DNA of 64,000 nucleotides from Candidatus Bathyarchaeia archaeon (GCA_049516875.1 JBEKSS010000006.1:50671-114670); one strand, 5' to 3'. Counted from the first letter of the stretch, positions 12,819 through 55,152 are shown. Numbers and translations: made by a program. The notes: generated from the letters alone by a model not told the origin.

Positions 12819-13058
12819 CTAGCGAAAGCTTCGAGTCTTCAAACCGCGCGGTTTATCTCACGGACAGGTCGGAAACTGCTGCCCAGACATGGCTCGTAGG
12901 GCCTCAGAATGTCGGTGTGAGGTCGTGTTTAGTGAACCAAGGCTGCATACGATACGCACGGAGGTTTGTAATGTTACAGAGTGGGAACATGCCTTTTAAA
13001 GCTCGCCTACGAGGAGTGAATTGGCGATGAAGTTCATTGGGCTTGGCGAGGGAGAAGC

Positions 13059-13178
13059 GTGGCTAGAAGAATTTTCTGCGACAAATGTGGACGCGAGTTG
13101 AAGTCTTCCGAGGTCGTTCAATTGCTGGAATACGATTTGTGCACTGCATGCTGTAAGAAGGTTCTCGGAAGCAAATGA
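13059..13178 (+). CDS. Putative 39-aa zinc-finger microprotein
   Basis: Own translation from GTG: MARRIFCDKCGRELKSSEVVQLLEYDLCTACCKKVLGSK; CxxC...CxxC; GGGAG upstream. Confidence 0.5.
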   Translation: MARRIFCDKCGRELKSSEVVQLLEYDLCTACCKKVLGSK

Positions 13179-13716
13179 TCCCAGAGACATGTAGACTTGC
13201 GTGCCTGTCCTAGCGCTTTCTCGTTAGACGCGGTCAATGTAGAATAGGTCCGCCGTGACATAGTTTGTTTGCGAGTGTAGAAAAGGGCGGCTGACTAGAA
13301 CATTGTTTCATAAATTATTTATGAGAGGAAGAGGCAAAATATCATTCTGTAATGTAGAGAATGGCAGAGTGTTCATCAGTAGCGGGAAAGGAGAGAAGGG
13401 ACTAAAAGACCCGAGCTTCGCATACCACTCTCACATAATATCAATGAAATGTGCTACTATTAAAGTTTGACGGAAAACTTCAAATATGAATGATTCTGTC
13501 CACGTCTCAATCCATTGAAGTTGAAAAGCTTGCTGACGTTTTCACGGAAGCTGCCGGTTAAATGATATAGCATGGCCTTAAAGAGCATCAAAGTTTCTTA
13601 ACATTAGACGAGTATACGCAGCTATCTCGCCTCAACCTTGGAATACATTCCTTGAGAAACTGCAACCGAAAGCTCTATATCGTTTCCTAGTCGAGGTTCT
13701 TTTCCTATAGAAAGTC

Positions 13717-13791
13717 GGGCCGGTAGTTCAGCTTGGTATGAACGCCGCATTCGCAATGCGGAAGTCGTGGGTCCAAATCCCGCCCGGTCCA
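13717..13791 (+). tRNA. tRNA-Ala(CGC)
   Basis: Acceptor GGGCCGG/CCGGTCC with G3:U70 alanine identity pair; anticodon arm CCGCA-TTCGCAA-TGCGG; discriminator A; CCA not encoded. Confidence 0.95.
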
Positions 13792-13859
13792 CTCCCATTT
13801 TTGGGTTCAAGTCTAACAAATCAGCCCCCTAGCAAAGCTGCGGTTTCAGTGTAGGAATA

Positions 13860-14041
13860 CGCAACTCGATAGCGGCTACCATGGCCCCTAGTAAGTCACG
13901 GCAACTGGTCCTTTCTCTATAAATTATCCATGCCACCGGGATGATGATAACTGACATCAAGGAAATCAATGTTTGAGGAATGCCTGCTTGAGTGTAGGTT
14001 GCGGTGACCATGAAAAACGCCTTGTCTGCGAACGGTCCGAA
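13860..14041 (-). pseudogene. C-terminal fragment of an EamA/DMT transporter
   Basis: FGPFADKAFFMVTATYTQAGIPQTLISLMSVIIIPVAWIIYRERTS..LLGAMVA matches the last EamA helices; no N-terminal part. Confidence 0.65.
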
Positions 14042-14184
14042 AGCGCGGGCGTTTCGTTACTAGGAAGACGTAGACGACTGCGGTAAGTAGCCGGCCCAGA
14101 AAAGAAGTCAGAAACTTTACGCGAAACAGATAATTGATACGACAGGAAGGATGAAGCCAAATCTCACGCAACAGAAAACGATGG

Positions 14185-14294
14185 TTCAACATCAAAGTGG
14201 CTGCCAATCTTGAGGAAACATGCAAGCTGTGGAGGCAGGTTATGCGTATGTCACTGATATGGACGGCCAAAAACTATTCAGAAAACGAAAGTAG
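14185..14294 (+). pseudogene. Frameshifted C-terminal remnant of a probable tyrosine integrase
   Basis: FNIKVAANLEETCKL / frameshift / EAGYAYVTDMDGQKLFRKRK*; recalled as the tail of Bathyarchaeia site-specific integrases; 400 bp downstream of tRNA-Ala. Confidence 0.55.
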
Positions 14295-17106: not shown

Positions 17107-17184
17107 GGGCCCGTGGCTCAGTCAGGCTAGAGCGGCGGACTCTTAATCCGTAGGTCGCGGGTTCAATTCCCGTCGGGCCCGCCA
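17107..17184 (+). tRNA. tRNA-Lys(CTT)
   Basis: Acceptor GGGCCCG/CGGGCCC; anticodon arm GCGGA-CTCTTAA-TCCGT; GGTTCAATTCC T-arm; CCA encoded. Confidence 0.96.
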
Positions 17185-20436: not shown

Positions 20437-20751
20437 GTGGGATTCTGGGGAAAAGTCGCCTTGTTTCTGATGCTGCTGTCGGCTGTCGACTTTTTTGTCG
20501 CTCTGTTTTTGCACGTACGCTTCACAGACGTGATGTTCATGGAGGGGATATTGATCTTCGCGTTTGGAGCGGTCATCGCTTCGGGAATCGGAAACCTTCG
20601 CAGAGAGACATGGACAACGTTGAAAACGGATCCCCAAGGTCACACAGAATACTTGGAGGATCAACGTTCAAAAGAAGATAGAGACGGAATCATACTAATG
20701 ATCGTAGGTGCGATTATCATAAGCTTGTCCATCGCCGCAGCTCTATGGTAG
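20437..20751 (+). CDS. Small three-TM membrane protein
   Basis: Three hydrophobic segments in 104 aa. Confidence 0.7.
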   Translation: MGFWGKVALFLMLLSAVDFFVALFLHVRFTDVMFMEGILIFAFGAVIASGIGNLRRETWTTLKTDPQGHTEYLEDQRSKEDRDGIILMIVGAIIISLSIAAALW

Positions 20752-20977
20752 AGAGCCAGCGCGCTGAAAGCAGTCACAATTCTTCGGCAACGGCAACGAG
20801 CGCGGTAGAGGAAATGAAGCTCGCGGAAGGTGGGCTTGAATATGCATACACAGCTCAAGAAGCTATGACGCTGTTCAAGAAAGGAAAGTAAAATGAACGG
20901 AACTTCGTGTTGATAATGAAAAACACAGAGTAACAAATATAAGCAAGAATTGTCCCATGGAACTCGATCGGTGTATC

Positions 20978-25131: not shown

Positions 25132-25165
25132 AGTGGCCGTCTGTTACAAGCAGGGTTGAGAAACC

Positions 25166-26437
25166 TTAGTCTACTATTCTTCCTTTCTCTGCCACTAGTT
25201 TTCCGTCTTTGAAGACTTTCTCTGCTAGGTTAATGCCGTAGTGATATGCAAAGAACTTGTGATTTGGTGCATCAAAGATGACTATGTCTGCCTTTTTTCC
25301 CTCCTCCAAGCTTCCTATTTCATGGGCTCTCTCTATAGAGTGTGCAGCGTTGATTGTTGATGCTGTAAGCGCCTCCTCTGTGGTCATTCTCATCTGGAGA
25401 ATTGCAATAGTTATCATCATCTGCATTGATTCGCACATGTCTGCCGCGCTCAGATCGGTTCCTAGCGCTATGGGCAGTCTTTTGTTGATGATTTCTCTCG
25501 CTTTTGCATACGTGCCCAAATAGCAGAATGGGGTTGTTGGCAAGAATGTTCCGATTATGCCTTTTTTCACCAGAGCTTCGATTTCCTCGGGTGGTGTGAA
25601 GATTAGGTGGTCAGCGGAGATGACTCCCAGCTCTGCGCCTAGTTTTGCTCCTCCGCTATGAGCCAGCCAGTCAGCATGAATTCTCAACTTCATTCCGTAT
25701 TTTCTGCCCGCCTCGAGTATTCGCCTAGACTGCTCTACGTTGAAGTATCCTTTCTCGCAGAACACGTCACAGTATTCAGCCAGTTTTCTCTTCGCAACTT
25801 CTGGAATCCATTTTTTAACTACTTCATCTGTTAACTGATCAACCTTGTTTTCGTATTCGAAGGGAATGCCTTGAGCCATGAAAGTTGGAATCAAGTCGAC
25901 TGGATGCATCTCGTTAAGTGCTTTGATTATTTCTAGTTGTCTGATTTCGCCTTGAAGCGTCATTTCATATCCGCTTTTCGCTTCTATCGTTGTCGTGCCG
26001 TGCAGTAGCATCGTGTCAAGTATTCTGATGGTTTTTTTGAGCAGTTCTTCTGTGGATGTTTCGCCAGTCTTTTTTAGGGTTGTCGGCATTCCTCCTCCTC
26101 TTGCTTTGATTTCCAAGTACGGCGTACCTTTCACAGCCATCTGCTCAAGTTCTTCCTCTCTTGAACCGGCGAAAACCAGGTGGACGTGAGGATCGATGAG
26201 TCCCGGCGTGACGAGTTTACCGCTTGCGTCTATGACTTCAAACCCTTTTTCAAGCCTGTCCAAGACCTCCTTCGTAGTGCCGACGGCCACTATTCTTCCA
26301 TCTTCGACTGCGACTGCTCCGTCTTCTATTATGGCCAGATCATTCATTTCCTCTTTGATCTGGGGTTTGCAGCTTTTTCCCCTCAGAGTCGCTAGCTCAT
26401 TTGCGTTGATTATTGCGAAATCAGCTCTTATCGCCAT
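25166..26437 (-). CDS. Imidazolonepropionase-like amidohydrolase (divergent HutI)
   Basis: PGLIDPHVHLVFAGSREEE, GTTTIEAKSGY, DVFCEKG, SADHL, GSLEEGKKAD; several substrate-site motifs altered (see findings). Confidence 0.85.
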   Translation of the reverse strand: MAIRADFAIINANELATLRGKSCKPQIKEEMNDLAIIEDGAVAVEDGRIVAVGTTKEVLDRLEKGFEVIDASGKLVTPGLIDPHVHLVFAGSREEELEQMAVKGTPYLEIKARGGGMPTTLKKTGETSTEELLKKTIRILDTMLLHGTTTIEAKSGYEMTLQGEIRQLEIIKALNEMHPVDLIPTFMAQGIPFEYENKVDQLTDEVVKKWIPEVAKRKLAEYCDVFCEKGYFNVEQSRRILEAGRKYGMKLRIHADWLAHSGGAKLGAELGVISADHLIFTPPEEIEALVKKGIIGTFLPTTPFCYLGTYAKAREIINKRLPIALGTDLSAADMCESMQMMITIAILQMRMTTEEALTASTINAAHSIERAHEIGSLEEGKKADIVIFDAPNHKFFAYHYGINLAEKVFKDGKLVAEKGRIVD

Positions 26438-26468
26438 GTTTTCTCCTCTTTTCACGGGTATGCGAGCG

Positions 26469-27797
26469 CTACACGTCTAGATACTTCTTTCTTTCCCACT
26501 CGTGCACGGTGGCGTTGTAGTCCTTCCACTCCTTAGTTTTGAGTTCCAGGAATTTTTCGCAGAATGCTTTTCCCAAAGCGTCTTGCAAGCACTTGTCTTT
26601 AGAGAATTCGTTCAAAGCATCTCCTAGAGTTCCGGGAAGCACTCCTATGCCTTTCTTGGCTCTTTCTTTTTCGCTCATCTCGTAAATATCCTCTTCGACA
26701 GGCTCTGGAAGCTCAGTTCTTCTTTTGATGCCATCCAAGCCGGCGGCCAGGATAGCGGCAAACGCAAGGTAGAAATTGCAAGATCCATCCGTGGGCCTGT
26801 ACTCCAACCTGGTTCTCATCCCTTTTCCAGGTGGAACCCTGACGAGAACTGACCGGTTATACTTGGCCCACGAAAGGTAGACTGGGGCCTCCCACCCTGG
26901 TACAAGCCGTTTGTACGAGTTAACGGACGGGTTAGTCACGGCTGCTAAAGCCTTTGCGTGAGCTAACAACCCGGCTATGAAATTCAGGGCAGTCTTGCTC
27001 AGGCCATAGCTTCCTTTTGGATCATAAAACAGATTCTGAGCCTTCTTATCGTTTGTAAGACTGACGTGAGTGTGCAGTCCACATCCATAGCCGCCGTGAA
27101 AAGGCTTCGGCATAAAAGAGGCAAAAAGTCCCCTTCTGGCCGCTGTCATCTTCACAACAAACTTGACCAAGTAAATCGTGTCAGCCATTCTCAGTGCATC
27201 CGCATAGGCCAGGTTCAGCTCGGATTTTCCCGGAGGCACTTCATGATGATGCTTTTCAACCAGAACACCGGCGTTTCTAAGATTCTCCGTAATCTCAAGT
27301 CTCAAATCAGCGCCAACATCTGCTGGAGGACTAGCCAAATATCCTGCTTCATCGATTAGTCTTATGCTGCCGTCTTCGCCCTTTTTGAAAACGAAATACT
27401 CTATCTCGCTGCACGCGTTATACTTGACACTGGTCCCCAGGTTCTTCTTGGAATCGTTCACAACCTTCTTAAGTATGAACCTTGGGTCAAGCTCAAAAAG
27501 TTTATCTGATTCCGGCTCGTAAATGTCACAAACCACTCTTGCCACTTTCTGAGGGAAAAGACTGGTTGGCAGAATGGCGAACGTGTCCACGTCCGGCACG
27601 AGTTTCAAGTCGCTTTTGCTTATGTCTACCATGTCGACGGATGAACCATCCGTGTGTATGCCGTCTTCAGCAACCTTTGACAACATCTCAGAGGGAATCC
27701 AAAGAGAGTGCAAGATGCCAGACAAGTCCGTAAACTGTAACACTATCTCCTTCACGTTTTCCTTTTCAACTATCTTCACAACCTCAGACATGCTCAT
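26469..27797 (-). CDS. glnA: Type I glutamine synthetase family protein
   Basis: LQFTDLSG, TDGSSV, HHHEVPPG, FMPKP, GLHTH, NSYKRLVPGWEAP, NRSVLVRVP, RLEYRPTD. Confidence 0.88.
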   Translation of the reverse strand: MSMSEVVKIVEKENVKEIVLQFTDLSGILHSLWIPSEMLSKVAEDGIHTDGSSVDMVDISKSDLKLVPDVDTFAILPTSLFPQKVARVVCDIYEPESDKLFELDPRFILKKVVNDSKKNLGTSVKYNACSEIEYFVFKKGEDGSIRLIDEAGYLASPPADVGADLRLEITENLRNAGVLVEKHHHEVPPGKSELNLAYADALRMADTIYLVKFVVKMTAARRGLFASFMPKPFHGGYGCGLHTHVSLTNDKKAQNLFYDPKGSYGLSKTALNFIAGLLAHAKALAAVTNPSVNSYKRLVPGWEAPVYLSWAKYNRSVLVRVPPGKGMRTRLEYRPTDGSCNFYLAFAAILAAGLDGIKRRTELPEPVEEDIYEMSEKERAKKGIGVLPGTLGDALNEFSKDKCLQDALGKAFCEKFLELKTKEWKDYNATVHEWERKKYLDV

Positions 27798-27909
27798 TCC
27801 AATCCCTCACAGAACATCACCTCTTCTTTTATATTATTTTTCTTCTGCATGCGCGCTAGACTTATATTTCGCTGGAATCAGAGCTCCTAGAAGGATTGGA
27901 GATTACTGA

Positions 27910-28815
27910 ATGGAGTTTAGGGTAAACGGGATTCCAATTGAAGATACTTTCTGTGAGACGTTTACAGTTCGAATCGCCAGGATACTTGTAACCTCTGTAA
28001 ACAGAAAATGGGCTCTGGAATCAGCCTTGGAAACCAAAGGCCTTGGCAGATCAGCCACTATTCCACCTTCAGAAGCCTCCATAGAGGCTGAAGCTAAGCC
28101 TGAAGAGACTCCCGACGGCAGACCGGGTTTCATAATCCAGTTCATTGACAGAAAGCCGGAGCCGTTGAAAGAATGGCTCGTAGTCAGAATAAGGAAGGGA
28201 ATCATGCCCTATCCTAAGACTAGCGTGTTTGATGTTTTGCCATCGGGAATGGCTGAGGAATTTGTGGATATCAAGGGCACAATCATACAGACCTTCGGAG
28301 ACGGATTTGAAGAGGAAACCGAGGTTTTCGGAAAGAAGGTTTTCAAGATACCGAGGATGGACGGTTATTTTCTTGTTGAAAGAAGATTCGGAATCGCGAA
28401 AGGCGTGGCTGGTGGCATGTTCCTGATTCTAGCGAGGTCGGATGAAGCCGCGTTGAAAGCTGCTGAACGGGCTGTTGAGGACACGAAAACCGTTCCTTAT
28501 GTAGTCGGGAAGTTTGCTGCTTCCGGAACCAAGGTCGGAGGGAAAAACTACAAGGATGCTATAGCCACAACCAATGATGCATACTGTCCTTGCCTGGCGG
28601 GAAACGAGGGGAGCAAGATCCCTGAGGGCGTGAAATGCGTCTACGAAGTCATAGTCAGTGGATTAAGGCTGGAGGATGTAAGTAGAGCAATGAGAGTCGG
28701 CATAGAAAACGCGACAAAGGCTCATGGAGTGACGAGAATAACCACAGCAAACTATGGTGGAACCTTGGGTAAAGGCAAAATTCATCTACAAAGCTTGTTT
28801 GACCTCAAAAGTTGA
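27910..28815 (+). CDS. ftr: Formylmethanofuran:tetrahydromethanopterin formyltransferase paralog (divergent)
   Basis: VNGIPIEDTFCETF, TPDGRPG, FGDGFE, IPRMDG, GVAGG, TNDAYCP, VYEVIV, NYGGTLGK. Confidence 0.85.
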   Translation: MEFRVNGIPIEDTFCETFTVRIARILVTSVNRKWALESALETKGLGRSATIPPSEASIEAEAKPEETPDGRPGFIIQFIDRKPEPLKEWLVVRIRKGIMPYPKTSVFDVLPSGMAEEFVDIKGTIIQTFGDGFEEETEVFGKKVFKIPRMDGYFLVERRFGIAKGVAGGMFLILARSDEAALKAAERAVEDTKTVPYVVGKFAASGTKVGGKNYKDAIATTNDAYCPCLAGNEGSKIPEGVKCVYEVIVSGLRLEDVSRAMRVGIENATKAHGVTRITTANYGGTLGKGKIHLQSLFDLKS

Positions 28816-28907
28816 AGACATCCTGCGACATGAGCGAACCTAGCGCGTGCTAGAAACAGAAGATTAAAGTGGGCATTCATCAATTATACTCACGTAACGA
28901 GATACCT

Positions 28908-30989: not shown

Positions 30990-30995
30990 GCATCG

Positions 30996-36178: not shown

Positions 36179-36225
36179 CTCTACGCTGAAGCCATGGTCA
36201 TGCAGGTTTTAACACGCGCGATTCG

Positions 36226-46312: not shown

Positions 46313-46711
46313 ATGTCTGAAGTTGAAGGCTACATTCTCAGAATTGCCACCAAACAGTGGGTCAATCAAGTCTTCAGCATGGCGATTTACTACACGAACT
46401 TGCGCAGGAAGTGGAAGACTGGGCAAACCATACTGTTCGTTCACAAAACCAACGTAGGCGACGCGTTGGTAGGTTATGGCATAATAGAGAAAGCTTGCGA
46501 GAAAGATGAGCTTTCTGAACAAGACAAGCATGAGTGTGAGAGAGGCGGCTGGAAAAGAGCCATCGAATTCAGGTATGTGAAACAATTTGATAAACCGCTA
46601 GCTGTCAAGGACACGTTTCTGAAAGGCTCAAAACTTCGAGGAAGATATTTTCACGGTTTGAAACTAGACAAGAACCAGCTAGAGGCTATCTTGGCTCAAG
46701 CTAAAGCCTGA
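46313..46711 (+). CDS. EVE/PUA-like domain protein
   Basis: WKTGQTILFVHKT..GDALVGYGII...AIEF..VKQFDKPL resembles the EVE fold pattern. Confidence 0.55.
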   Translation: MSEVEGYILRIATKQWVNQVFSMAIYYTNLRRKWKTGQTILFVHKTNVGDALVGYGIIEKACEKDELSEQDKHECERGGWKRAIEFRYVKQFDKPLAVKDTFLKGSKLRGRYFHGLKLDKNQLEAILAQAKA

Positions 46712-46927
46712 CCGTGGTAACCTGAACATTATTGTCGACAAGGACACGGCCAATTTGTTCATATGACGCTCGATATTCGCAAGGAGCATGGAAAGACCAT
46801 AGAGGGAACTATCACCGAATGCGAGTTCACAATTCGCGTCGGCAGCTAAACCTGTTGCGTCGAGATCGGCAAAAGAATTTAAATGCCGATTGTGGCTTTA
46901 TGGTTCTGTCATTGCAGGGGAAGATGC

Positions 46928-48577
46928 GTGGTTAAGTACGTTTTTGTCACTGGCGGAGTTCTGAGTTCGGTGGGCAAGGGGATTTTGACTTCTTCGATTG
47001 GCAAAATGCTTCAGGCAAGAGGCCTGAAAGTTACCGTCATAAAAATTGATCCTTACGTGAACGTTGACGCTGGAACGATGAATCCGTACATGCACGGCGA
47101 AGTGTACGTGACTGATGACGGCGGTGAAACAGACTTAGACTTGGGCTGGTATGAACGTTTTCTTGATTTGGACTTGCGGAAAGAAAACAACATCACCACG
47201 GGCTTGATCTACAAGGCGGTCATCGAGAAGGAGAGGCGCGGAGATTTTCTTGGAAGATGTGTGCAGATTGTTCCGCACGTGACTAACGAGATAAAGCATC
47301 GCATACACACCGTTGCCAAAGACTCATGCGCTGACGTGGTTTTGACAGAGGTCGGCGGCACCGTCGGAGACATTGAAGGACTGCCCTTCCTCGAAGCGAT
47401 TCGCCAGATGCGATTGGAAGAGGGCATGGAAAACACGTTGTACGTGCACGTGGCTCTTGTGCCCATCCTGGACGTCACACAAGAAATGAAAACGAAGCCC
47501 CTCCAACACAGCGTCAACGAACTGCGACGCATCGGCATACAGCCGGACACTATCGTTGCAAGAAGTCCAGAGATGATAGACGCTGAAGCTCTGAGAAAAA
47601 TAGCCCTGTTCGGGACGATACCCGAGAGCGCGGTTTTCTGCTCCTACAACGTTGAATCAGTCTACAAGGTTCCCCTAATCTTGGACGAGCAAGGAATGGG
47701 TGACTTTGTCTGCAAAAGATTCGGGTTCTCAGAAGCCAAGAAAGACTTCAAAGAATGGAAAGAGTTCGTTGACGCCGTCTTGAAACCGGAGTACGAAGTG
47801 AAAATCGCCTTAGTCGGCAAGTACGCTGGGCTAACTGACAGCTACGTCAGCATGGGCGAGGCTTTGCGACACGCAGGAGCTGCATGCAGAGCGCGAGTCT
47901 GCATCAGTTACCTTGAAGCTGAGAAGCTTGAACAGAATCCTAAATGTGCGGAGATGCTGAATGGGTTTGACGGCATTTTCGTACCTTACGGTTTCGGTCC
48001 CCGAGGCACTGAAGGAAAAGTAATGGCCATAAAGTTTGCCAGAGAGAGCGACACTCCCTTTCTGGGAATATGCTACGGTTTTCAGCTCGCCGTGATAGAA
48101 TTCGCTCGGCACGTCTGCAATTTGAAGGAGGCAAACAGTACAGAAATCAACCCGGACTCGCCCAACCCCGTGATTGATTTGATGCCTGAACAACGTGGGA
48201 TAGAAATCAAAGGAGCCACCATGCGACTGGGAGCTCATAAAATAATCGTGGAGCCCGGCACCTTGGGCCACAGGCTCTATGGGAACGGGGAGATTTACGA
48301 ACGTCACCGTCACAGGTTTGAGGTTAACCTTGACTACTCGGAAACGCTGAGAAAAAACGGTTTGGTCTTCTCAGGGAAGAGCACTGATGGCAGAAGGATG
48401 GAACTTCTAGAGCTGCCTGATCACTTCTTCTTTTTCGCTTCACAGTTTCACGGAGAATTCAAAAGCCGACCAGGAAGACCCGACCCAGAATACTACGGTT
48501 TCATAAAAGCTTGTTTAGACAAAAAGCAGGGCAAAACCAAACCCCGGCTTGGTCAAGAGATAAAGTTGCCTGCTTAG
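46928..48577 (+). CDS. pyrG: CTP synthase
   Basis: KYVFVTGGVLSSVGKG, DPYVNVDAGTM, KTKPLQHSV, GICYGFQ, RHRHRFE, QFHGEF. Confidence 0.97.
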   Translation: MVKYVFVTGGVLSSVGKGILTSSIGKMLQARGLKVTVIKIDPYVNVDAGTMNPYMHGEVYVTDDGGETDLDLGWYERFLDLDLRKENNITTGLIYKAVIEKERRGDFLGRCVQIVPHVTNEIKHRIHTVAKDSCADVVLTEVGGTVGDIEGLPFLEAIRQMRLEEGMENTLYVHVALVPILDVTQEMKTKPLQHSVNELRRIGIQPDTIVARSPEMIDAEALRKIALFGTIPESAVFCSYNVESVYKVPLILDEQGMGDFVCKRFGFSEAKKDFKEWKEFVDAVLKPEYEVKIALVGKYAGLTDSYVSMGEALRHAGAACRARVCISYLEAEKLEQNPKCAEMLNGFDGIFVPYGFGPRGTEGKVMAIKFARESDTPFLGICYGFQLAVIEFARHVCNLKEANSTEINPDSPNPVIDLMPEQRGIEIKGATMRLGAHKIIVEPGTLGHRLYGNGEIYERHRHRFEVNLDYSETLRKNGLVFSGKSTDGRRMELLELPDHFFFFASQFHGEFKSRPGRPDPEYYGFIKACLDKKQGKTKPRLGQEIKLPA

Positions 48578-48605
48578 GCACAGAAATATGGAAAGCACAT
48601 TGCTG

Positions 48606-49040
48606 TCAAGGGTTTGGAAAAAGCTTACTGTGTTCCTGCATCATGCACCGGTTCATAACCATTATTATGCCCGCTTGTCTCGCCGTTTCTGCCGCTTGTT
48701 CATTGATTATATCAAGTTGCATCCAGACTACATAGGGCTTATCGTAACGTTCCTTCAACTTGACGGCCTGCTCGACTATGGCAGGCGTGTCTGCTGAGGG
48801 TCTGAAAATGTCGACAATCTCGATGGTTCTCTGAACTTCAGCTGGCATTTCCAACAGGCTCTTGTAACACTTTTCCCCCAGAACCTCGTCCGTCGTGGGG
48901 TTCACCGGTACGATACGGAAGCCTTGCCCTTGTAAGTACTTGGCGACACGGTGGCTGTCTTTGGAAGGGTCGCGGGATACTCCCACAACCGCGACAGTTC
49001 TGTATTTAGTAAGGATTTCTTTCACATCGTCCTTGACCAA
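48606..49040 (-). CDS. CoA-binding protein (YccU-like)
   Basis: VAVVGVSRDPSKDS, VPVNP, VDIFRPS, VWMQ, MNRCMMQEH. Confidence 0.9.
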   Translation of the reverse strand: MVKDDVKEILTKYRTVAVVGVSRDPSKDSHRVAKYLQGQGFRIVPVNPTTDEVLGEKCYKSLLEMPAEVQRTIEIVDIFRPSADTPAIVEQAVKLKERYDKPYVVWMQLDIINEQAAETARQAGIIMVMNRCMMQEHSKLFPNP

Positions 49041-49238
49041 GCTTCTAACCCCTAGGAACTCTGAAAAGTTGTTTCCTGTACTTAAGGCATTCAGTTCTTC
49101 CGCGAAGGATAGGGTATTCTTCCCTGCTCTCTAGTGCAACATCCGCTATCTCATTTTCTTTTGTATAGGAAGATGCCTAGACAGCATTTATGGTATGAAT
49201 AGCGCGTCCGCCTTTCAATGACAGCATGCACAAGCTCA

Positions 49239-49424
49239 AGCGCGCATGCTTGTTCCTAAATTGGTCTAAAATGGTTTTTATTCGCCTTTTACGATTTGAG
49301 GACAGTTTTGGACTTCGCATTTGTTCCTGAATTCCTTGCGGCAACCAGCCTTCTCGAACCGGCAGAAGTTTGCAGAACGGAATTAAAACCATTTTTAACC
49401 ATTTTAGGAACACGCATGCGCGCT
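49239..49424. mobile_element. MITE-like element with long terminal inverted repeats
   Basis: 49239..49283 and 49380..49424 are inverted repeats, 40/45 identical; no coding capacity. Confidence 0.75.
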
Positions 49425-49553
49425 AAGCCTTGTGAAAGATTGGAGATTTCTACCGCGCGCGCTCATTTGAGAAGTCTTATAAGCGGTCACCACTTCAAAC
49501 ACAACAATGTAGCAGTTGTCGGTTTTCATGTGATTAGGAGAGAAAGATGAGAA

Positions 49554-50903
49554 ATGGGCAGAAAGGAAGTTATTTTATTCGTTTCAATGGTTTTGCTCGC
49601 AACATTCGTGGTTCCTCTAATAGGTTTAACTTCAGCGTCTGAAGTTAGAACTACTACACTCGTTCCTGTTGCAGACTCATTTGTCTCTTATGATACCCCC
49701 AAAACCAACGTTGGCAAGGAGCTATATCTGCGCACGGAATATGAGAAGCAAAAAACGGTCCTTAATGCAACATCATTCACCGTTCCTCCTTCGTCGCTTT
49801 TTTTCAGCGTATATCTTCCTCAGAACGGAAGAATAACAGGATCCTTCGCGGTAACAGCAGGCGGGAACAAGGACATCAATTTCGCAATAACAGACAGCGC
49901 ACAAACCACATATTATTACCAGTTGAATCGCGCGACAGCATCAAACTTTTCTTTTGTCGCGCCTTACACAGGTAACTTCTACCTGGTTTTTGACAACTCA
50001 TTCTCATTCTTCACAAGCAAGACGGTTTCCTTATCTGACGTGATTTTAACAATGGACTCGAACGTAATATCCACGCCGATTTTCCTTCTATTTGATCTTT
50101 CAAATATCCCTCCAGAAGCGACAATTAACACGGCAAACCTCTCTCTAAGCTTCAAAGATTCCGGAATAAGCTTGTATAACATTGTGAAGTCATTCGATTG
50201 CTCTGAAAGCAATTGGAATGAACAAGCCATAACATTCGAAAATGCGCCTCTATCACAATCATTCTTGACTGAATCATCGTCGCTGAACATGTCTGTCGGC
50301 ATTTCAGCTGGATCTCGTATCTATATGGATATTAAACCGGACGTCGTGCGGAGTCTGTCAAATGGAAAACTGACCGAGGTAATCGCGGCAGTGGATGGGG
50401 AGTTTTGGGCAGGTATTGTTGAGTTCGACTCTAGGGAATCAGAAAATACGCCAAAGCTTGAAATCTCTTACACCTATGTTTCAGCCAGTTCTTCTCTTTC
50501 ATCATCATTCATGATAGAAGGCCAGAACGTTGCTGTCAATGTTACGACCAATCCTTCCCAACCCCAGGGCAATATTAGGATTCAGTACAGCACCGACCAA
50601 TTAAAATGGTATGATATAAGTCAGGTTCAGGGCGGATCAGCGTATAATGTTTGGACACCATCAATAACAGGACAAGTTTATGTCAGAAGTGTCTGGGTAG
50701 TTTCTTGGAATGGAGGTTCCTATCAAACGACGAGTTCCGTGAGCAGCATATACGTTATGCCGATATCACTTGTTGTGGCCATACCTGTAGCAATCATAGC
50801 GGTAGTTGCAGCAATCGTGGGAATACGATATTGGCGAAAAAGAAGAGTCCATGTCAAGAAAAACACCGATTTTCAAGCACCTCAAGTGCCTCCGCCCACC
50901 TAG
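49554..50903 (+). CDS. Type I membrane surface protein: DNRLRE-like domain with inserted GOLD/p24-like domain, Ig-like domain, C-terminal TM
   Basis: Signal peptide; PVADSFVS, LLFDLSNIP, WNEQAITF.NAP, FDSRE...PKLEISY; insert with FYLVFDNSFSFFTSKTV; TM then RKRR. Confidence 0.7.
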   Translation: MGRKEVILFVSMVLLATFVVPLIGLTSASEVRTTTLVPVADSFVSYDTPKTNVGKELYLRTEYEKQKTVLNATSFTVPPSSLFFSVYLPQNGRITGSFAVTAGGNKDINFAITDSAQTTYYYQLNRATASNFSFVAPYTGNFYLVFDNSFSFFTSKTVSLSDVILTMDSNVISTPIFLLFDLSNIPPEATINTANLSLSFKDSGISLYNIVKSFDCSESNWNEQAITFENAPLSQSFLTESSSLNMSVGISAGSRIYMDIKPDVVRSLSNGKLTEVIAAVDGEFWAGIVEFDSRESENTPKLEISYTYVSASSSLSSSFMIEGQNVAVNVTTNPSQPQGNIRIQYSTDQLKWYDISQVQGGSAYNVWTPSITGQVYVRSVWVVSWNGGSYQTTSSVSSIYVMPISLVVAIPVAIIAVVAAIVGIRYWRKRRVHVKKNTDFQAPQVPPPT

Positions 50904-51101
50904 CGCGTGTAGCATAGTTCGCGGCATACATCCCCATTTGGGTATCTCCCTAATCTCCATCAATTTTCCATAATGGTGAGAATGTACATCTCCTTAGTAA
51001 CCCTGTCTATGCCCTAATGCGTGCACTATTACTACGCACCATAAGTGACAGAAACGAGACTTTTATGAGACACTTAAGCGATAAGTTTGTGACGATAAGA
51101 G

Positions 51102-51524
51102 ATGGGCGGCAGAAGAACCTCAAAAGAGGAGCTGGCACAATTAGAAGCCTTAACTAAGGAAGGACTTACAGCCAGAGACATAGCTCAAAAACTCGATAGG
51201 TCTCCGGCGGCCATAAGAAACCTTCGCTACAAGAAACACTTAGTCACCAGGGCACAAGACGAGACTAAAGCCTTGTTTCATCAAAGAGACGAATTAATCA
51301 ATATTGTGAAGTTTCTTCAGGGAGAGAAAGCGTCGTTAGCTTTTGAAGTGGAATATCTCAGAAAGGAAAGGGCAAGACTTGAAGCAGCCATCGCAACAGA
51401 CAAAGCTCGTCTAGAAGAAACTCTTGCTCAAGCACTGAAAAACCTGAAAATACAGAGACCCGACTTGTTCACTCTATCTGGTCCAGAGCAAATAGCCATG
51501 CTATTAAAAGTGTTCTTGAAATGA
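51102..51524 (+). CDS. HTH protein with C-terminal coiled coil
   Basis: EGLTARDIAQKLDRSPAAIRN HTH followed by heptads. Confidence 0.75.
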   Translation: MGGRRTSKEELAQLEALTKEGLTARDIAQKLDRSPAAIRNLRYKKHLVTRAQDETKALFHQRDELINIVKFLQGEKASLAFEVEYLRKERARLEAAIATDKARLEETLAQALKNLKIQRPDLFTLSGPEQIAMLLKVFLK

Positions 51525-51743
51525 GTTCTCACTTGGTTATGAGATAGCGCGTGCTAGACTTGAAGGAACGAGTGTTCAGGGCAATAGAAGAGTTGATGCG
51601 GCTATCCTATCCTTCACCATGAACACGCGCCTACATGTCTGGTCTTCCTCTCGGACAAAAATGTTATTAGCATCAGCATATGCCGAGTATTCTAGTTGGA
51701 AGTAAATAGTAAATCCATTGACAAGGAAAACTGAGTTGGTGAC

Positions 51744-51923
51744 ATGCCCGAAGAAACCGTTCTCGAATGCCCAAAATGCGGAAAGCGTACAATAATTAAA
51801 CATAAAACGAAAGCGAGGAACCCTTATGGGCATTTTATAATATATGAGTGCCTTTCATGCGGTTGGAAGACGTCCTGGATGCCAGATGAGCGCGCTCTAC
51901 AAGAGTCCAATGGGGTGGAATAG
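51744..51923 (+). CDS. 59-aa Zn-ribbon microprotein
   Basis: GGTGA SD; MPEETVLECPKCGKR...YECLSCGWK...; two CxxC pairs; below the ORF-track cutoff. Confidence 0.65.
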   Translation: MPEETVLECPKCGKRTIIKHKTKARNPYGHFIIYECLSCGWKTSWMPDERALQESNGVE

Positions 51924-52027
51924 AACATAGTTATAGGAGATTAGTGAATGGACTTCAACCCCGCACTGATAAGCGATCCGAAGGAGCGAGTATTCAAGCG
52001 CGCGCGTCCTATGCACGTACGCTAATT

Positions 52028-52852
52028 CTACCAGAAACCTCGAGCATTCGGAAAGTAATACTCAAGTTTCTTGATACATCTATCCTGTTCTTCTCTGTCT
52101 AAAGAGCTGTGTTTTTGTGCGTTTATTTGTCTGGTGACAGAACCTCCTGTCACATCAACAACCAACAGTCCAATGCGAGCATTGTTTAAAACATTCTCTA
52201 ATGTCTGCGAACCATATGCCGCCAATTCCGTAATCTTGCGTCCGATCTCTATTACTAGACCAGGGGTTGTAGCTAGGAAGACTCTATCAGAGTATCTCAT
52301 GAAAGTGCTTGCTTGATTGAGAAATCTCTTATACTCATTGAACTGGGTCTTTGCGTCAACTGCAACAAGGTTTTTCTCCCCCCAACCTTTATCACAAGCA
52401 AAGAAATCAGGCCAGCCTTCTCTTTTTAGGTGATCGGTGTGAAATGCTATACTATATTCTCTCTTAAGGTACTTCCTGATCGAATCGTATAACTCGCTCT
52501 CATCCTCAACGTGCCCGAATACATAGTTGAAAACTCTCGGAGAATCTTCCAGCGTTTCTACTATGTGCTCACAGAGTAGTTCATGGTCATAATGCCTCTC
52601 ATACATGTCAAGCCCTTTTTTTCTGAGACTAGCGGATGCTTCCATCAGTCTCCGAGCTTTCTCGGTGTTTGTCAAACGATCGTAATCTCGCATATTGTTT
52701 TGCATGTCAGTGTTGGTCATCCTTGTATGTTCTAACAACAATCTATAGACGCTCGAATGACGGCTTGTGTTCAGAAGACGTCTTAGAATTTCATCCACTT
52801 CCAGATAAGCAAAGTAGTTAGCCAATTCCTTTCCCAAGTCGATTATGTTCAA
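52028..52852 (-). CDS. PD-(D/E)XK superfamily nuclease-like protein
   Basis: E..LY...GWPDFFA...VAVDAK...QA..F..YSDRVFLA; start uncertain (ORF track 52918). Confidence 0.65.
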   Translation of the reverse strand: MNIIDLGKELANYFAYLEVDEILRRLLNTSRHSSVYRLLLEHTRMTNTDMQNNMRDYDRLTNTEKARRLMEASASLRKKGLDMYERHYDHELLCEHIVETLEDSPRVFNYVFGHVEDESELYDSIRKYLKREYSIAFHTDHLKREGWPDFFACDKGWGEKNLVAVDAKTQFNEYKRFLNQASTFMRYSDRVFLATTPGLVIEIGRKITELAAYGSQTLENVLNNARIGLLVVDVTGGSVTRQINAQKHSSLDREEQDRCIKKLEYYFPNARGFW

Positions 52853-52926
52853 AGAGTTTAAGAATCTTGCGAAGAACACGTAGGGTTGCTTCGGAAAACT
52901 TACTAATAGGGCCGACAAAGTATTAT

Positions 52927-54717
52927 TTGATTATCTTGCCTCTCTATCTGTCGTCGCTGACGGAGACTGACAACACAGGTTGGGAACGATCAGCGACGCT
53001 TGACAAAGCGTTGGCCTGTGCCTTTATCTGCATCGAGGCAGAGAGAAAGAAAGAGAAGGGTTTTCTGTTCAAACAGCCCGAAGAAGTAATTTCCTTTATG
53101 GTGCAGGTTCTCTGGCCTTTCGCTCTTGTCGAACGGCCCTCCGGAAAGAAGGTAATATTCGATTCGCTGGCAGTCATGAAACGGCAGATCTATGATGGCA
53201 ATGTCGGGCGTGGCATAGAGTTTGTTGAACAAATAAAGGAATGCGCTCCGTCTAGTATTAGCAGAAGCGAGTTTCACAAACGTCTTCAAAGATACACTTC
53301 TTATTTCAAGGATTTTGTCGACTCGAAAATGCTTGAAATACCTGGCTGTCTTCCTGACAACAAAATAGCTGAAGGACTAACAGTCGCATTTTCTTCAGCA
53401 GGACCGAAAGAACAGTGCGAATCTGTTGATCTTTCACCGATAATCGACACTGGCAAAGTGAAGGAATCGTTGAGTGCCTTATCAGAGCTGAAGGCTAAGT
53501 CGCAGGGCGACATTCAAACGTTGAACAAATCCCCGTTGCCACTTAATTCGGTAATGCCGAAATGGCATAAACAAATCGACGATGAGATCAAGCAGGTCAA
53601 AAAGACATACAATGCTTTAATAGAAGATATTAGACCCGACGTTGCCGAAAAAATAAGCGAGCTGACAACGTTAAGAGAACGTGAGTTGGCACCGCTTAGA
53701 CCGATAATAGAAAGACTTGAGAATGAAACGCGAGTATGGGAGGATTTTAAAAGAACTCGAGAGGCAGAAGAATCAAGAGCAAGAGCGGACGAAATCAAGG
53801 CAGAAGGAGATCTGGAGCAGGCAGAAGAGGAAGTGGACGAGGCCAATCAAGAGCTGCAAATCGCTCAAAGACGAGCCAACGAAGACCAAAGCTACCAACA
53901 ACGCTACGATGAAGAATGGGTTTCGCAGATACAAAGGCGAATAACACGCTTGGAGAACAAAGTATCAGATGCAGAAGACACTGTAAGTCGTGCTAGACCG
54001 TTCAGAAATGAGTGCATGGAAAGAACCTATGAAACTTCAGCGGAGCTTTCCCGCGTCGAAGGAATACTAAACCAGAAAAGAGATGAGTATGGTAACATCG
54101 AGGATCATTATGAAAGAGTGATAGCTGACCAAGAAAGACGGATAACAGCACTCGAAGACAGAAGGGACTCGGAGGTCGAGTCGCTGAGCCACGAATCATC
54201 TATTTTGAGAGATAATTCAAAGGAGATTCGCGAGGACATCAAGAAATTGATCAGACGGAAGGAACTTGTCATTAACCAGATCGACGGTCTCGAAATGCAC
54301 ATACCAATCGCCTCATTGAAGCCCGAAACCGAATCTTACATTTACGTTCCCTTTTTCCTAGCGTTGCTGAAGAGCCAATCTGGTTCGAGATTTCTTGTGA
54401 TCCCCCCTTCCAGAGCGAGAAAAAGCAAGAGCACGGTGGAAAAAATAAGTCAGTTCCTCATGTCAAAGATCCCTATCCCTTCTGAACCGAGAAATCACCA
54501 TCTAACACAGCTCTCTTCAGAACTGCTGAAGTTATTAACAACGACCAACCCGATTTCGAAAGAACTATTTGGAAAAGCTCAACAATCAAACCTACTGAAT
54601 TCGAGCAATACGAGAGATCAATTGCTTAAAGGAATACAGGGGCTTTGCACTGAAGGTTTTTTGAGCGAAAAAGTTGCACGAAAATTGATGAGCACTTTTC
54701 CCATGAACCCCAAATAA
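52927..54717 (+). CDS. Long coiled-coil protein with globular N- and C-termini
   Basis: Central E/R/Q-rich heptads; terminal WPF and YVPFF beta-strand motifs; no Walker A seen; start uncertain. Confidence 0.75.
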   Translation: MIILPLYLSSLTETDNTGWERSATLDKALACAFICIEAERKKEKGFLFKQPEEVISFMVQVLWPFALVERPSGKKVIFDSLAVMKRQIYDGNVGRGIEFVEQIKECAPSSISRSEFHKRLQRYTSYFKDFVDSKMLEIPGCLPDNKIAEGLTVAFSSAGPKEQCESVDLSPIIDTGKVKESLSALSELKAKSQGDIQTLNKSPLPLNSVMPKWHKQIDDEIKQVKKTYNALIEDIRPDVAEKISELTTLRERELAPLRPIIERLENETRVWEDFKRTREAEESRARADEIKAEGDLEQAEEEVDEANQELQIAQRRANEDQSYQQRYDEEWVSQIQRRITRLENKVSDAEDTVSRARPFRNECMERTYETSAELSRVEGILNQKRDEYGNIEDHYERVIADQERRITALEDRRDSEVESLSHESSILRDNSKEIREDIKKLIRRKELVINQIDGLEMHIPIASLKPETESYIYVPFFLALLKSQSGSRFLVIPPSRARKSKSTVEKISQFLMSKIPIPSEPRNHHLTQLSSELLKLLTTTNPISKELFGKAQQSNLLNSSNTRDQLLKGIQGLCTEGFLSEKVARKLMSTFPMNPK

Positions 54718-54737
54718 TATGTTCCTGCAAGTCAAGT

Positions 54738-54965
54738 CGCGCGCGCTCTAAGCTTCATTGAATCCTCAGCTTCAAGATTCTTTAGTCTCTCAATAACAGC
54801 AAAATCATGACTGTTTAAACCGTACTTCTTCAAAACTTGGTTTTGCCCTTCAAGCTTGCACAGAACAAACTGTTTGGCAATATGCACAGCTTTGTCATTC
54901 TTCAAAGCTTCATATTGACACACCCTAGTCTTAACGTGACTGTCATCATCCAGACTCTTTAGCAT
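54738..54965 (-). pseudogene. cas1: Internal fragment of a Cas1/casposase-like gene
   Basis: LKSLDDDSHVKTRVCQYEALKNDKAVHIAKQFVLCKLEGQNQVLKKY matches the Cas1 R..QY...IAK.FV..K...Q..VL helical segment; both ends missing. Confidence 0.65.
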
Positions 54966-54966
54966 C

Positions 54967-55152
54967 GTGTTTGTTTGGTTTTTGATAATGTTTCTTGCTG
55001 TGGTAGCAGATTATGGTTACATCTTATCAAATTACGGTGCATTGGTGTATATTTTCCTTTTAGTTGGCATTACTGTAGTCTGGTTTCTAATACGCAGATT
55101 GCTTGCAACAAAGCAACGCGCGCGCTATGTGAAAGTTAAGACTTGTGGATGA
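54967..55152 (+). CDS. Small two-TM ORF, possibly a fragment
   Basis: Two hydrophobic stretches; abuts the cas1 fragment with no room for a promoter. Confidence 0.35.
   Translation: MFVWFLIMFLAVVADYGYILSNYGALVYIFLLVGITVVWFLIRRLLATKQRARYVKVKTCG

What the first reader, a model, noticed from the sequence alone, without database searches (positions are those of the whole stretch)
12841..55125. Alternating-CG runs bracket accessory genes and mark gene break points: candidate cassette/recombination system
Seen: four 9-nt pure CG runs within 5.7 kb (49454, 51998, 54738, 55117), an identical TAGCGCGTGCTAG at 28841 and 51545, TAGCGCGTG overlapping the stop at 50901, and GCATGCGCGCTA at both 27847 and 49414. 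Further runs occur at 12841, 19171, 20757, 32542, 35900, 36215, 37032, 46167 and 51888. They flank single accessory units on both sides: ftr (27847/28841), flaB (36215/37032), the surface gene (49454/50901) and the nuclease plus coiled-coil pair (51998/54738). Three gene fragments end at such a run: EamA (14042), GNAT (35900) and cas1 (54738). Inference: these are recombination sites, preferred insertion targets or excision scars of an integron-like gene shuffling process, or Z-DNA-prone fragile sites. Shorter runs also occur inside housekeeping ORFs, so enrichment needs testing.
Basis: partly seen in the sequence, partly recalled or inferred. Interest (0 to 1): 0.85.

Follow-up and report, generated by a model that had tools for sequence, protein, structure and literature searches.

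The report
Hyper-abundant intergenic GC palindrome in Bathyarchaeia
The alternating CG runs are real copies of a short palindrome, A(GC)3-5T, that litters the non-coding and accessory DNA of this peat archaeon and some relatives and also forms the tips of a transposon family, but they are not the recombination sites of an integron-like cassette system.

Summary
The window is not richer than the rest of its genome: 4 runs of 8 nt or more against about 11 expected. The genome, a Bathyarchaeia MAG, is very rich: GCGCGCGC occurs 447 times against 23-31 expected. No other dinucleotide repeat is enriched.

- **Location:** 310 of 388 loci are intergenic.
- **Accessory bias:** they are three times denser beside accessory genes.
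- **Gene context:** they crowd just after stop codons and avoid promoters.
- **Turnover:** position is shared with a sister species in only 1 of 45 cases.

All four 9-nt runs lie in a 6.2-kb strain-specific island. Its break points fall on a TACTTAA(A)G direct repeat, not on a run.

(GC)3 is also the outer tip of an IS5-family insertion sequence and its 184-bp MITE, which sit between TA pairs. One MITE lies at 49240-49423. A few solo runs sit exactly where a homologue carries such a tip.

However, 16 of 19 motif-rich genomes across five families lack that element. My best reading is a HIP1-like, continually replenished palindrome, not an integron. How it is generated remains unknown.

The parts
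49454..49462 (.). 9-nt run CGCGCGCGC, intergenic, 92 nt upstream of the surface-protein gene and 30 nt right of the MITE
51998..52006 (.). 9-nt run GCGCGCGCG, 22 nt downstream of the stop of gene 52028-52918 (minus strand)
54738..54746 (.). 9-nt run CGCGCGCGC, 21 nt after the stop of gene 52867-54717; the Cas1 fragment ends here
55117..55125 (.). 9-nt run CGCGCGCGC, about 190 nt inside the right end of the island
49240..49423 (.). 184-bp MITE with tips GCGCGCATG...CATGCGCGC. The inverted-repeat arms 49229-49283 and 49380-49434 are 84% complementary. It is the non-autonomous form of an IS5-family element.
   Evidence: loose ends of other copies at 49239/40 and 49424/25; transposase
49086..55316 (.). 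6.2-kb strain-specific island (MITE, GOLD/CBM96 surface protein, HTH protein, unknown 296-aa and 616-aa proteins, Cas1 fragment). It is bounded by direct-repeat copies TACTTAAGG (49079-49087) and TACTTAAAG (55308-55316).
   Evidence: absent from G001, G002 and G003; a contig of depth 1432 in run X7 joins 49085 to 55326; genes
25137..28859 (.). 3.7-kb segment (amidohydrolase, glutamine synthetase, Ftr) missing at this place in G002. It is bounded by the direct repeat AAGATTRAAGTGG, and the degenerate run TAGCGCGTGCTAG sits 8 nt inside its right end.
27847..27858 (.). GCATGCGCGCTA, identical to the last 10 nt of the MITE plus TA; probable solo tip remnant
   Evidence: compared by eye
28841..28853 (+). 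TAGCGCGTGCTAG, a one-transition variant of the palindrome, 26 nt after the ftr stop
   Evidence: variant class counted
50901..50909 (+). TAGCGCGTG overlapping the stop codon of gene 49554-50903
51545..51557 (+). Second copy of TAGCGCGTG(CTAG)
54732..55010 (-). Cas1 fragment (matches profile positions 76-136 of 283)
36215..36220 (.). CGCGCG, 6 nt after the archaellin stop and next to the edge of a 3.2-kb block that is inverted in G002. G002 has a degenerate GCGCGTG at the same gene end.
12845..12850 (.). CGCGCG, 27 nt after the stop of gene 9762-12818
20759..20764 (.). GCGCGC, 8 nt after the stop of gene 20437-20751

Best explanation
The CG runs are copies of a short palindrome, (T)A-(GC)3-5-T(A), that is hyper-abundant in the non-coding DNA of this Bathyarchaeia genome and of a patchy set of other Bathyarchaeia lineages. 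It behaves like a cyanobacterial highly iterated palindrome (HIP1) in abundance, but unlike HIP1 it is confined to unconstrained DNA and turns over quickly.

Shown:
- The enrichment is specific to GC-phase runs.
- The runs are intergenic, lie next to accessory genes and indels, and sit preferentially just after stop codons.
- Their positions are not conserved between species.

Inferred:
- Copies are continually created by a lineage-specific, sequence-directed DNA transaction that recognises the half-site AGCGC. This could be a nuclease, transposase, repair or modification activity acting at DNA joints.
- Copies change length in 2-nt steps and are lost by point mutation.
- They survive only where selection is weak, which is why they seem to 'bracket' accessory genes.

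In this genus the same (GC)3 is also the outermost tip of an IS5-family insertion sequence and its MITEs, which sit between TA pairs. Remnants of these elements supply some of the runs. The runs are not att-type sites of a cassette recombinase.
For: Enrichment:
- GCGCGCGC has 447 sites against 23-31 expected. AGCGCGCGCT has 98 against about 2.
- Only (GC)4 and (CG)4 are enriched among dinucleotide repeats, at 18.6x and 10.7x; the others range from 0.64x to 1.65x. GCGCGCGC is the top palindromic octamer; outside the CG family the next is 3.7x.
- The phase is specific. Maximal runs number (GC)3/4/5 = 345/212/48 against (CG)3/4/5 = 158/28/8, and only 3 runs reach 12 nt or more.

Location:
- 310 of 388 loci are intergenic against 71 expected.
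- Density is similar in tandem, divergent and convergent spacers (0.67, 0.64 and 0.86 per kb), and nothing is conserved beyond a TA on each side.
- Runs of 6 nt or more reach 2.9-3.3 per kb in the first 30 nt after stops and only 0.7-0.8 per kb in the 30 nt before starts.
- Density rises from 0.32 to 0.78 to 1.03 per kb from core to accessory spacers.

Turnover:
- Among 587 collinear core intervals, an octamer is present in G000 only in 13, in G002 only in 31, and in both in 1.
- Perfect copies in spacers (346) outnumber every one-off variant class (18-110).
- Length differences of 2 to 6 nt are seen between homologues, and MITE tips vary between (GC)3 and (GC)4.

Distribution:
- 19 of 301 genomes of the class, from 5 families, have 20 or more AGCGCGCGCT, with the reversed control at 5 or fewer.
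- 16 of those 19 have no tip of the IS family.
- G107, a single-contig genome with 601 octamers, has neither the tip nor a transposase homologue.
- All 3 sites sampled in three other genera are intergenic.

The motif is not an assembly artefact: independent run X4 covers all four window runs with 0-5 differences per contig.
Against: - No enzyme was identified. No C5 cytosine methyltransferase (PF00145) reached the family's score cut-off in G000-G004, and none was found in G099, G107, G115, G142 or G119. G002 has one sub-threshold hit at E 7.8e-4. N4/N6 methyltransferases occur in 28 of 31 relatives and therefore cannot discriminate.
- Within family f1 the motif count tracks the number of IS tips. 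In genus g29, carriers have 44, 46 and 6 octamers against 0-12 in 11 non-carriers. In g32 the carrier has 35 against 3-17 in 5 non-carriers. A mobile-element origin could therefore explain more than I allow.
- In 4 of 40 informative junction pairs a solo run sits exactly where a homologue has the IS/MITE tip.
- The accessory bias and the closeness of runs to indel ends (6 of 13 run-bearing indels have a run within 24 nt of an end) would also fit a role in DNA exchange.
- Gene calls are my own crude ORF-based calls.
- 'Accessory' means not aligned to a single sister species at about 83% identity.
Confidence: 0.45

Rival explanations
1. Most runs are tips, solo remnants or excision/deletion scars of transposable elements whose termini are TA|GCGCGC. 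These would include the IS5-family element and MITE found here and perhaps other families elsewhere. They accumulate in dispensable DNA. Joining two 6-bp palindromic tips with 0-6 bp of overlap would give runs of 6 to 12 nt.
For: - 14 full MITE copies occur in G000, each with a GCGCGC tip at both ends except one truncated right tip. TA flanks the left end in 11 of 14 and the right end in 11 of 14.
- 178 of 262 element ends across G000, G002 and metagenome contigs are preceded by TA.
- The autonomous copy is 1082 bp with a 329-aa DDE_Tnp_1/DUF772 transposase. A second, 45%-identical relative in G000 also has GCGCGC tips.
- The tip motif occurs in 5 of 5 genomes of genus g1 (4-65 copies) and at most once in each of 26 other relatives.
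- Within g29 and g32 the carriers hold the highest octamer counts.
- In 4 junction pairs a run replaces the tip at the same TA.
- The run-length spectrum stops at about 12 nt.
- Solo octamers share the A/T flank preference.
Against: - 0 of 341 intergenic octamers lie inside a repeat of 3 or more copies, and 30 of 341 lie within 100 bp of one, against 11% of spacer bases.
- Octamers outnumber tips roughly tenfold. G003 has 253 octamers and 4 tips.
- 16 of 19 motif-rich genomes have no such tip.
- G107, G115 and G142 have no tip and no close transposase.
- TA on the two sides of an octamer is statistically independent, 23 observed against 21.5 expected, which is unlike young two-sided scars.
- In the junction cases I checked by eye, homology holds on one side only, so they are not simple excisions.
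- None of the 14 G000 MITEs had a clean empty site in G002.
Confidence: 0.25
2. The palindrome is a selected functional site: a binding site for a dimeric DNA-binding protein or a structural signal that acts at gene boundaries, for example as a terminator aid, an insulator, or a silencer of newly acquired genes.
For: - The motif is a perfect palindrome with a defined phase and flanks.
- Density peaks 0-30 nt after stops and 70-90 nt before starts, and is depleted over promoters.
- Density is slightly higher in convergent spacers, 0.86 against 0.64-0.67 per kb.
- The sites sampled in G107 and G142 lie in short convergent spacers.
- Perfect copies dominate over variants.
Against: - Position is not conserved: 1 of 45 octamer-bearing collinear intervals is shared, and that one is recently shared mobile DNA.
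- Only 43 of 900 core-core spacers carry one.
- No T-run or other partner signal appears in the flanks.
- An 8-nt GC palindrome cannot fold into a stable hairpin (my own knowledge, not tested).
Confidence: 0.13
3. One reading: the runs are recombination sites of an integron-like or other site-specific system that inserts and excises single-gene cassettes.
For: - The accessory bias and the link with length differences between species.
- 6 of 13 run-bearing clean indels have a run within 24 nt of an end.
- Several inserts carry a run 0-26 nt inside one end, next to a 7-15-bp direct repeat.
- In the one-sided junction cases, homology ends at the run.
- The Cas1 fragment ends at a run.
Against: - Pfam found no integrase or other recombinase among the 7 island ORFs tested.
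- The island's ends are on a TACTTAA(A)G repeat, 155-200 bp from the nearest run.
- 14 of 27 clean indels have no run.
- The direct repeats differ from insert to insert, so there is no common core site.
- The edge effect is expected anyway, because insert edges are non-coding.
- Runs occur equally in all spacer types, and gene orientations are mixed.
Confidence: 0.07
4. The runs are Z-DNA-prone or slippage-prone fragile sites that arise by ordinary microsatellite dynamics and cause breaks.
For: - Length changes in 2-nt steps are seen.
- Runs are confined to non-coding DNA, where 2-nt frameshifts are harmless.
- There is an upper length limit.
Against: - No other dinucleotide repeat is enriched.
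- The strong phase asymmetry, (GC)4 212 against (CG)4 28, and the A/T flank preference argue for sequence recognition rather than plain slippage.
- The trait is lineage-specific among genomes of similar GC content. G115 is locally 43-48% GC and rich in the motif, while most relatives are poor.
Confidence: 0.07

Closest known systems
HIP1 and alternate highly iterated palindromes of cyanobacteria (GCGATCGC)
   Same: It is a GC-rich 8-nt perfect palindrome that is lineage-specific and over-represented by an order of magnitude. Here the figure is about 15-19x. HIP1 is 15-300x (abstract and passages of PMC5861425 read).
   Different: HIP1 sits in coding and non-coding DNA and is conserved between genomes (passages of PMC5861425). 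It is tied to cognate methyltransferases (abstract and passages of PMC4390886). Here 80% of loci are intergenic, 1 of 45 is positionally shared, and no C5 methyltransferase passed threshold. The organism is an archaeon. PMC4390886 does not contain the string GCGCGC or the word archaea.
IS5-family insertion sequences and their MITEs
   Same: The 1082-bp element has a DDE_Tnp_1 + DUF772 transposase and terminal inverted repeats. There are 184-bp non-autonomous copies, mostly with TA on both sides.
   Different: This covers only about 47 tips in G000 against 388 octamer loci and about 345 maximal (GC)3 runs. The solo runs carry no other element sequence.
REP/BIME elements and Neisseria dRS3/Correia repeats (recalled from my own knowledge, not read here)
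   Same: They are short intergenic palindromic repeats in hundreds of copies, often near gene 3' ends and at the borders of variable segments.
   Different: Those are 20-150 nt long with family-specific sequence and a dedicated transposase or phage integrase. Here the unit is 8-12 nt and no partner enzyme is known. RAYT was not searched for.
Integron attC sites
   Same: They lie at cassette 3' ends, are palindromic, and are associated with accessory genes.
   Different: attC sites are 60-140-nt imperfect palindromes used by an adjacent IntI integrase in one-directional arrays (recalled). None of these features was found.

Membership tests
Highly iterated palindrome (HIP) | GC-rich octamer palindrome over-represented at least about 15-fold | tested here: met
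   447 sites against 23-31 expected at Markov orders 0-3; top palindromic octamer at 18.6x
Highly iterated palindrome (HIP) | Sites conserved between related genomes, in coding and non-coding DNA | tested here: not met
   1 of 45 octamer-bearing collinear intervals is shared between G000 and G002; 310 of 388 loci are intergenic
Highly iterated palindrome (HIP) | Cognate DNA methyltransferase present | tested here: inconclusive
   PF00145: no hit over the cut-off in 10 motif-rich genomes, with one sub-threshold hit in G002. PF01555 N4/N6 enzymes are present but ubiquitous, and their specificity is unknown.
IS5-family IS / MITE (for 49240-49423 and the GCGCGC tips) | DDE transposase of the IS4/IS5 type in the autonomous copy | tested here: met
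   L285:690-1679 matches PF01609 at E 1.2e-23 and PF05598 at E 1.3e-9
IS5-family IS / MITE (for 49240-49423 and the GCGCGC tips) | Terminal inverted repeats and many copies | tested here: met
   55-nt arms, 84% complementary; 14 full copies in G000; 262 ends in all sequence held
IS5-family IS / MITE (for 49240-49423 and the GCGCGC tips) | Short target duplication; the empty site holds one copy | tested here: inconclusive
   TA lies outside 178 of 262 ends. Homologues without the element keep TA or a near match and carry no CG run. No two-sided empty site was recovered.
Integron | IntI tyrosine recombinase beside the array | tested here: not met
   No integrase domain in 10 ORFs at 46883-57073. 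The wider genome was not searched for IntI.
Integron | attC-type 60-140-nt imperfect palindromes after each cassette, with cassettes in one orientation | tested here: not met
   The sites are 8-12-nt perfect palindromes with nothing conserved beyond TA, and genes lie on both strands
Uptake sequences (DUS/USS) | Enriched in the core genome and positionally conserved | tested here: not met
   Density is lowest in core-core spacers and position is not conserved
REP / RAYT | 20-40-nt imperfect palindrome plus a Y1 transposase | not tested
   The motif is only 8-12 nt long; RAYT was not searched for

The most novel reading that the evidence does not exclude
A(GC)3-5T is the recognition or joining signal of a still unidentified, lineage-specific DNA-processing system in Bathyarchaeia. 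This would be an archaeal counterpart of HIP1, DUS or dRS3 that acts at DNA joints and promotes the gain, loss and exchange of gene-sized segments. The IS5-type elements would have copied the signal onto their tips.
Probability: 0.12. Interest if true: 0.8.

Novelty: new variant of a known kind. Interest (0 to 1): 0.55.

Why it matters
Highly iterated palindromes have been studied almost only in cyanobacteria, and their origin is still debated. This is an archaeal case with a different motif and a contrasting behaviour: it is intergenic only, biased towards accessory DNA and fast-turning. It also has a patchy distribution, with 19 of 301 sampled Bathyarchaeia genomes in 5 families carrying it. 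That patchiness makes the question testable by phyletic profiling, because whatever gene tracks the motif is the candidate maker.

There are practical uses too. The motif and the new IS5-type IS/MITE family mark variable regions in Bathyarchaeia MAGs. They can also confound binning, assembly and motif-based inference.

My three literature searches listed no paper describing this motif or these elements in Bathyarchaeia. I read only listings, plus passages of two HIP1 papers.

Tried and rejected
- **Max-order Markov test.** It hides the enrichment because the sub-words are themselves enriched, so I used lower orders.
- **C5-methylation / very-short-patch idea.** No PF00145 hit passed threshold in the rich genomes.
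- **IS630 or mariner transposase as the mobiliser of the TA-flanked MITE.** PF13358 was not found in G000. The PF01359 search is uninformative because its controls found nothing anywhere. The element proved to be IS5-family.
- **The run is the MITE's target or duplicated site.** Rejected: homologues lacking the element show TA but no CG run.
- **Simple two-sided excision scar.** Not shown: in the cases checked by eye, only one flank is homologous.
- **Generic microsatellite slippage.** Rejected.
- **Octamers as parts of longer repeats.** Rejected.
- **Promoter or terminator motif.** Density is similar in all spacer types and no T-run is present.
- **The ~2-kb element at G000 C1:76833-78806.** It has the same tips but no recognisable transposase.
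- **Reads.** All four runs laid were contigs, not raw reads, so no circular junctions, read-level empty sites or run-length heterogeneity could be assessed. Only the window's own strain covers the four 9-nt runs.
- **Indel-edge test.** The null is weak because insert edges are non-coding.
- **G018's 227 octamers.** This is a composition effect: only 9 are AGCGCGCGCT, and the two phases are equal.
- **Phyletic profiling of candidate enzymes, and any check of the methylome.** Not done.

Full report
**What is in the window.** The window (47.9% GC) holds 22 alternating C/G runs of 6 nt or more. They include the four 9-nt runs at 49454, 51998, 54738 and 55117. TAGCGCGTG occurs at 28841, 50901 and 51545, 3 matches against 0.18 expected. 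GCATGCGCGCTA occurs at 27847 and 49414. By my ORF-based gene calls, 16 of the 22 runs are intergenic, and 6 of those lie within 38 nt downstream of a stop codon. Pfam confirms Ftr, an archaellin and a Cas1 fragment that ends at the 54738 run. It gave nothing for the ORFs I tried at the supposed EamA and GNAT fragments. There is no run of 6 nt or more at 14042.

**Organism and enrichment.** The window is G000:C6:50671-114670 of a 2.43-Mb, 20-contig genome. The best Ftr relatives are Bathyarchaeia MAGs. The window is not richer than its genome: it has 4 runs of 8 nt or more against 10.96 expected from the genome rate.

The genome itself is extraordinary. Run lengths are not geometric: 503, 204, 240, 112 and 56 runs of 6, 7, 8, 9 and 10 nt, then 5, 1, 1 and 1. 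GCGCGCGC has 447 sites against 23-31 expected at Markov orders 0-3. AGCGCGCGCT has 98 against about 2. No other dinucleotide repeat is enriched (0.64-1.65x), and GCGCGCGC is the most over-represented palindromic octamer; outside the CG family the next is 3.7x.

The phase matters. Maximal (GC)3/4/5 runs number 345/212/48 against 158/28/8 for (CG)3/4/5. Each side independently prefers TA: TA on both sides is seen 23 times against 21.5 expected.

**Where the copies lie.**
- 310 of 388 octamer loci are fully intergenic, although only 18% of the genome is. Other GC-rich hexamers are 9-16% intergenic.
- Density is similar in tandem, divergent and convergent spacers, and nothing beyond T-A flanks is conserved.
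- Runs of 6 nt or more are densest 0-30 nt after stops (2.9-3.3 per kb) and scarce 0-30 nt before starts (0.7-0.8 per kb). They peak again 70-90 nt upstream of starts.
- They are clustered. Per 10-kb window the mean is 1.55 and the variance 3.87, and 100 of 235 windows are empty. The clusters fall in gene-poor, low-synteny regions.
- None of 341 intergenic octamers lies in a repeat of 3 or more copies.

**Comparison with a sister species.** I fetched 2.29 of the 2.33 Mb of G002, a genome of the same genus. I aligned it to G000; 56% aligned at 82.6% identity.
- Octamers per kb of spacer are 0.32 between core genes (43 of 900 spacers), 0.78 at core/accessory borders (98 of 541) and 1.03 between accessory genes (114 of 525). 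Control hexamers are flat.
- Among 587 collinear core intervals, an octamer is in G000 only in 13, in G002 only in 31, and in both in 1. That one lies in DNA 98% identical between the two genomes.
- Octamer-bearing intervals differ in length by a median of 386 bp, against 0 overall.
- Of 27 clean indels, 13 contain a run and 14 do not. Nine have exact direct repeats of 5-17 bp at their ends. Six of the 13 have a run within 24 nt of an end. That edge effect is weak evidence, because insert edges are non-coding anyway.

**The island that holds the four 9-nt runs.** Window 49086-55307 is absent from G001, G002 and G003, where the flanks abut. G004 has a different 2.1-kb insert at this place, with an IS110-like gene and a MITE.

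Contigs of three independent peat runs show a dominant strain, about 94-95% identical, that joins 49085 to 55326 with 12 other letters between. Its depth is 1432 in run X7. The window's own strain, with 0 differences, is present at depth 3-9 and carries the island.

The ends lie on a TACTTAA(A)G direct repeat. The nearest CG runs are about 155 and 200 bp inside it. The 7 island ORFs tested include a GOLD/CBM96 surface protein, an HTH protein and unknowns, but no recombinase.

A second segment, 25137-28859 (amidohydrolase, glutamine synthetase, Ftr), is missing at that place in G002. It is bounded by AAGATTRAAGTGG.

**A transposon family with (GC)3 tips.**
- Window 49240-49423 is a 184-bp MITE with 55-nt inverted-repeat arms. 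G000 holds 14 full copies; every end is a GCGCGC tip except one truncated right tip, and most are flanked by TA.
- Loose ends of other copies in the read contigs confirm its borders.
- The autonomous form is G002:C7:99619-100700. It is 1082 bp long and encodes a 329-aa DDE_Tnp_1/DUF772 (IS5-family) transposase.
- A 45%-identical relative in G000 (C7:36835-37809) also ends in GCGCGC.
- Across G000, G002 and 80 metagenome loci, 178 of 262 ends are preceded by TA.
- Homologues that lack the element keep the TA and show no CG run, so the tip belongs to the element and not to the target.
- In 4 of 40 informative pairs, a solo run sits exactly where the homologue has the tip. MITE tips themselves vary between (GC)3 and (GC)4.
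- In the pairs I checked by eye, homology continues on one side only, so these are not clean excisions.
- GCATGCGCGCTA at 27847 is probably such a remnant.

**Is the transposon the source of all runs?**

Evidence for:
- Within family f1 the two features go together. Tips are found in 5 of 5 genomes of genus g1 and at most once in each of 26 other relatives.
- In g29 the three carriers have 44, 46 and 6 octamers against 0-12 in 11 non-carriers. In g32 the carrier has 35 against 3-17.

Evidence against:
- G003 has 253 octamers and 4 tips.
- In a sample of 301 genomes of the class, 19 genomes from 5 families have 20 or more AGCGCGCGCT with 5 or fewer of the reversed control. Sixteen of those 19 have no tip.
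- G107 (one contig, 601 octamers), G115 and G142 have neither the tip nor a close transposase.
- G115 is 43-48% GC locally.
- The three sites sampled there are all intergenic.

The motif is therefore a wider, patchy trait of Bathyarchaeia. This element shares it but does not explain it.

**Mechanism.** No C5 methyltransferase passed threshold in any of 10 rich genomes. N4/N6 enzymes are ubiquitous. Perfect spacer copies (346) outnumber each one-off class (18-110).

Three observations argue for continual replenishment by a sequence-specific process and against gene-specific function:
- rapid turnover;
- phase and flank specificity;
- length changes in 2-nt steps.

This contrasts with HIP1, which is conserved and found in coding DNA (passages of PMC5861425; PMC4390886). 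What the process is remains an inference. I put 0.45 on a HIP-like, enzyme-driven origin with IS remnants as a minor source, 0.25 on a mainly transposon-derived origin, 0.13 on selected boundary sites, 0.07 on cassette recombination and 0.07 on slippage or Z-DNA fragility.

**Limits.**
- Gene calls are crude.
- 'Accessory' is defined against one sister species.
- The read data were contigs only.
- Supplements of papers were not available.

Noticed in passing
L041 (G004:C9) about 12060-14200, the place orthologous to window 49086: The same intergenic site that holds the 6.2-kb island in the window carries a different 2.1-kb insert in G004. It has an IS110-like transposase ORF and a MITE copy, and is bounded by a CCAGTGTCCG direct repeat. 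This suggests an insertion hot spot between the CoA-binding-protein gene and the gene at 55380.
   Followed up: partly
window 36225-39405 versus L040 1568-4728: A 3.2-kb block (archaellin plus two genes) is inverted in G002 relative to its neighbours. A CG run, or its degenerate form, sits at the archaellin 3' end in both genomes.
   Followed up: partly
G000 C3 about 12200-13400 versus G002 C2 about 24000-25000 and C9 about 13700-13960: These stretches are 97-99% identical between two species whose genomes otherwise average 83% identity. This is probably recently exchanged mobile DNA, and it carries two CG runs.
   Followed up: no
G000 C7:239414-239535 and C8:1-122: The end of contig C7 and the start of C8 are 100% identical over 122 bp and include a 10-nt CG run. 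The two contigs probably join here.
   Followed up: no
window 43000-62000 in runs X5-X7: The window's strain is a minor variant (depth 3-9) beside a dominant strain about 94-95% identical (depth 100-1400) in several peat metagenomes. Run X4 (wetland) holds the window's strain with 0-5 differences per contig.
   Followed up: partly
window 55900-57177: The M29 aminopeptidase gene (55886-57073) is missing at this place in G002 and G004. G003 matches it at 73% identity on another contig.
   Followed up: no
G002 C5:5922-6915 versus L193 2356-2366: G002 has a 993-bp insert relative to a 95%-identical metagenome contig. No CG run of 6 nt or more was marked in the stretch printed.
   Followed up: no
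window 13717-13791 and 17107-17181: Two tRNA genes (Rfam RF00005, 59.9 and 69.8 bits).
   Followed up: no
G000 C1:76833-78806 (L164 833-2806): A ~2-kb element has the same TA|GCGCGC tips as the MITE but no recognisable transposase. It holds a winged-helix ORF (HTH_45) and a segment 90% identical to G002 C1:233792-235104. It may be a passenger-carrying derivative.
   Followed up: partly
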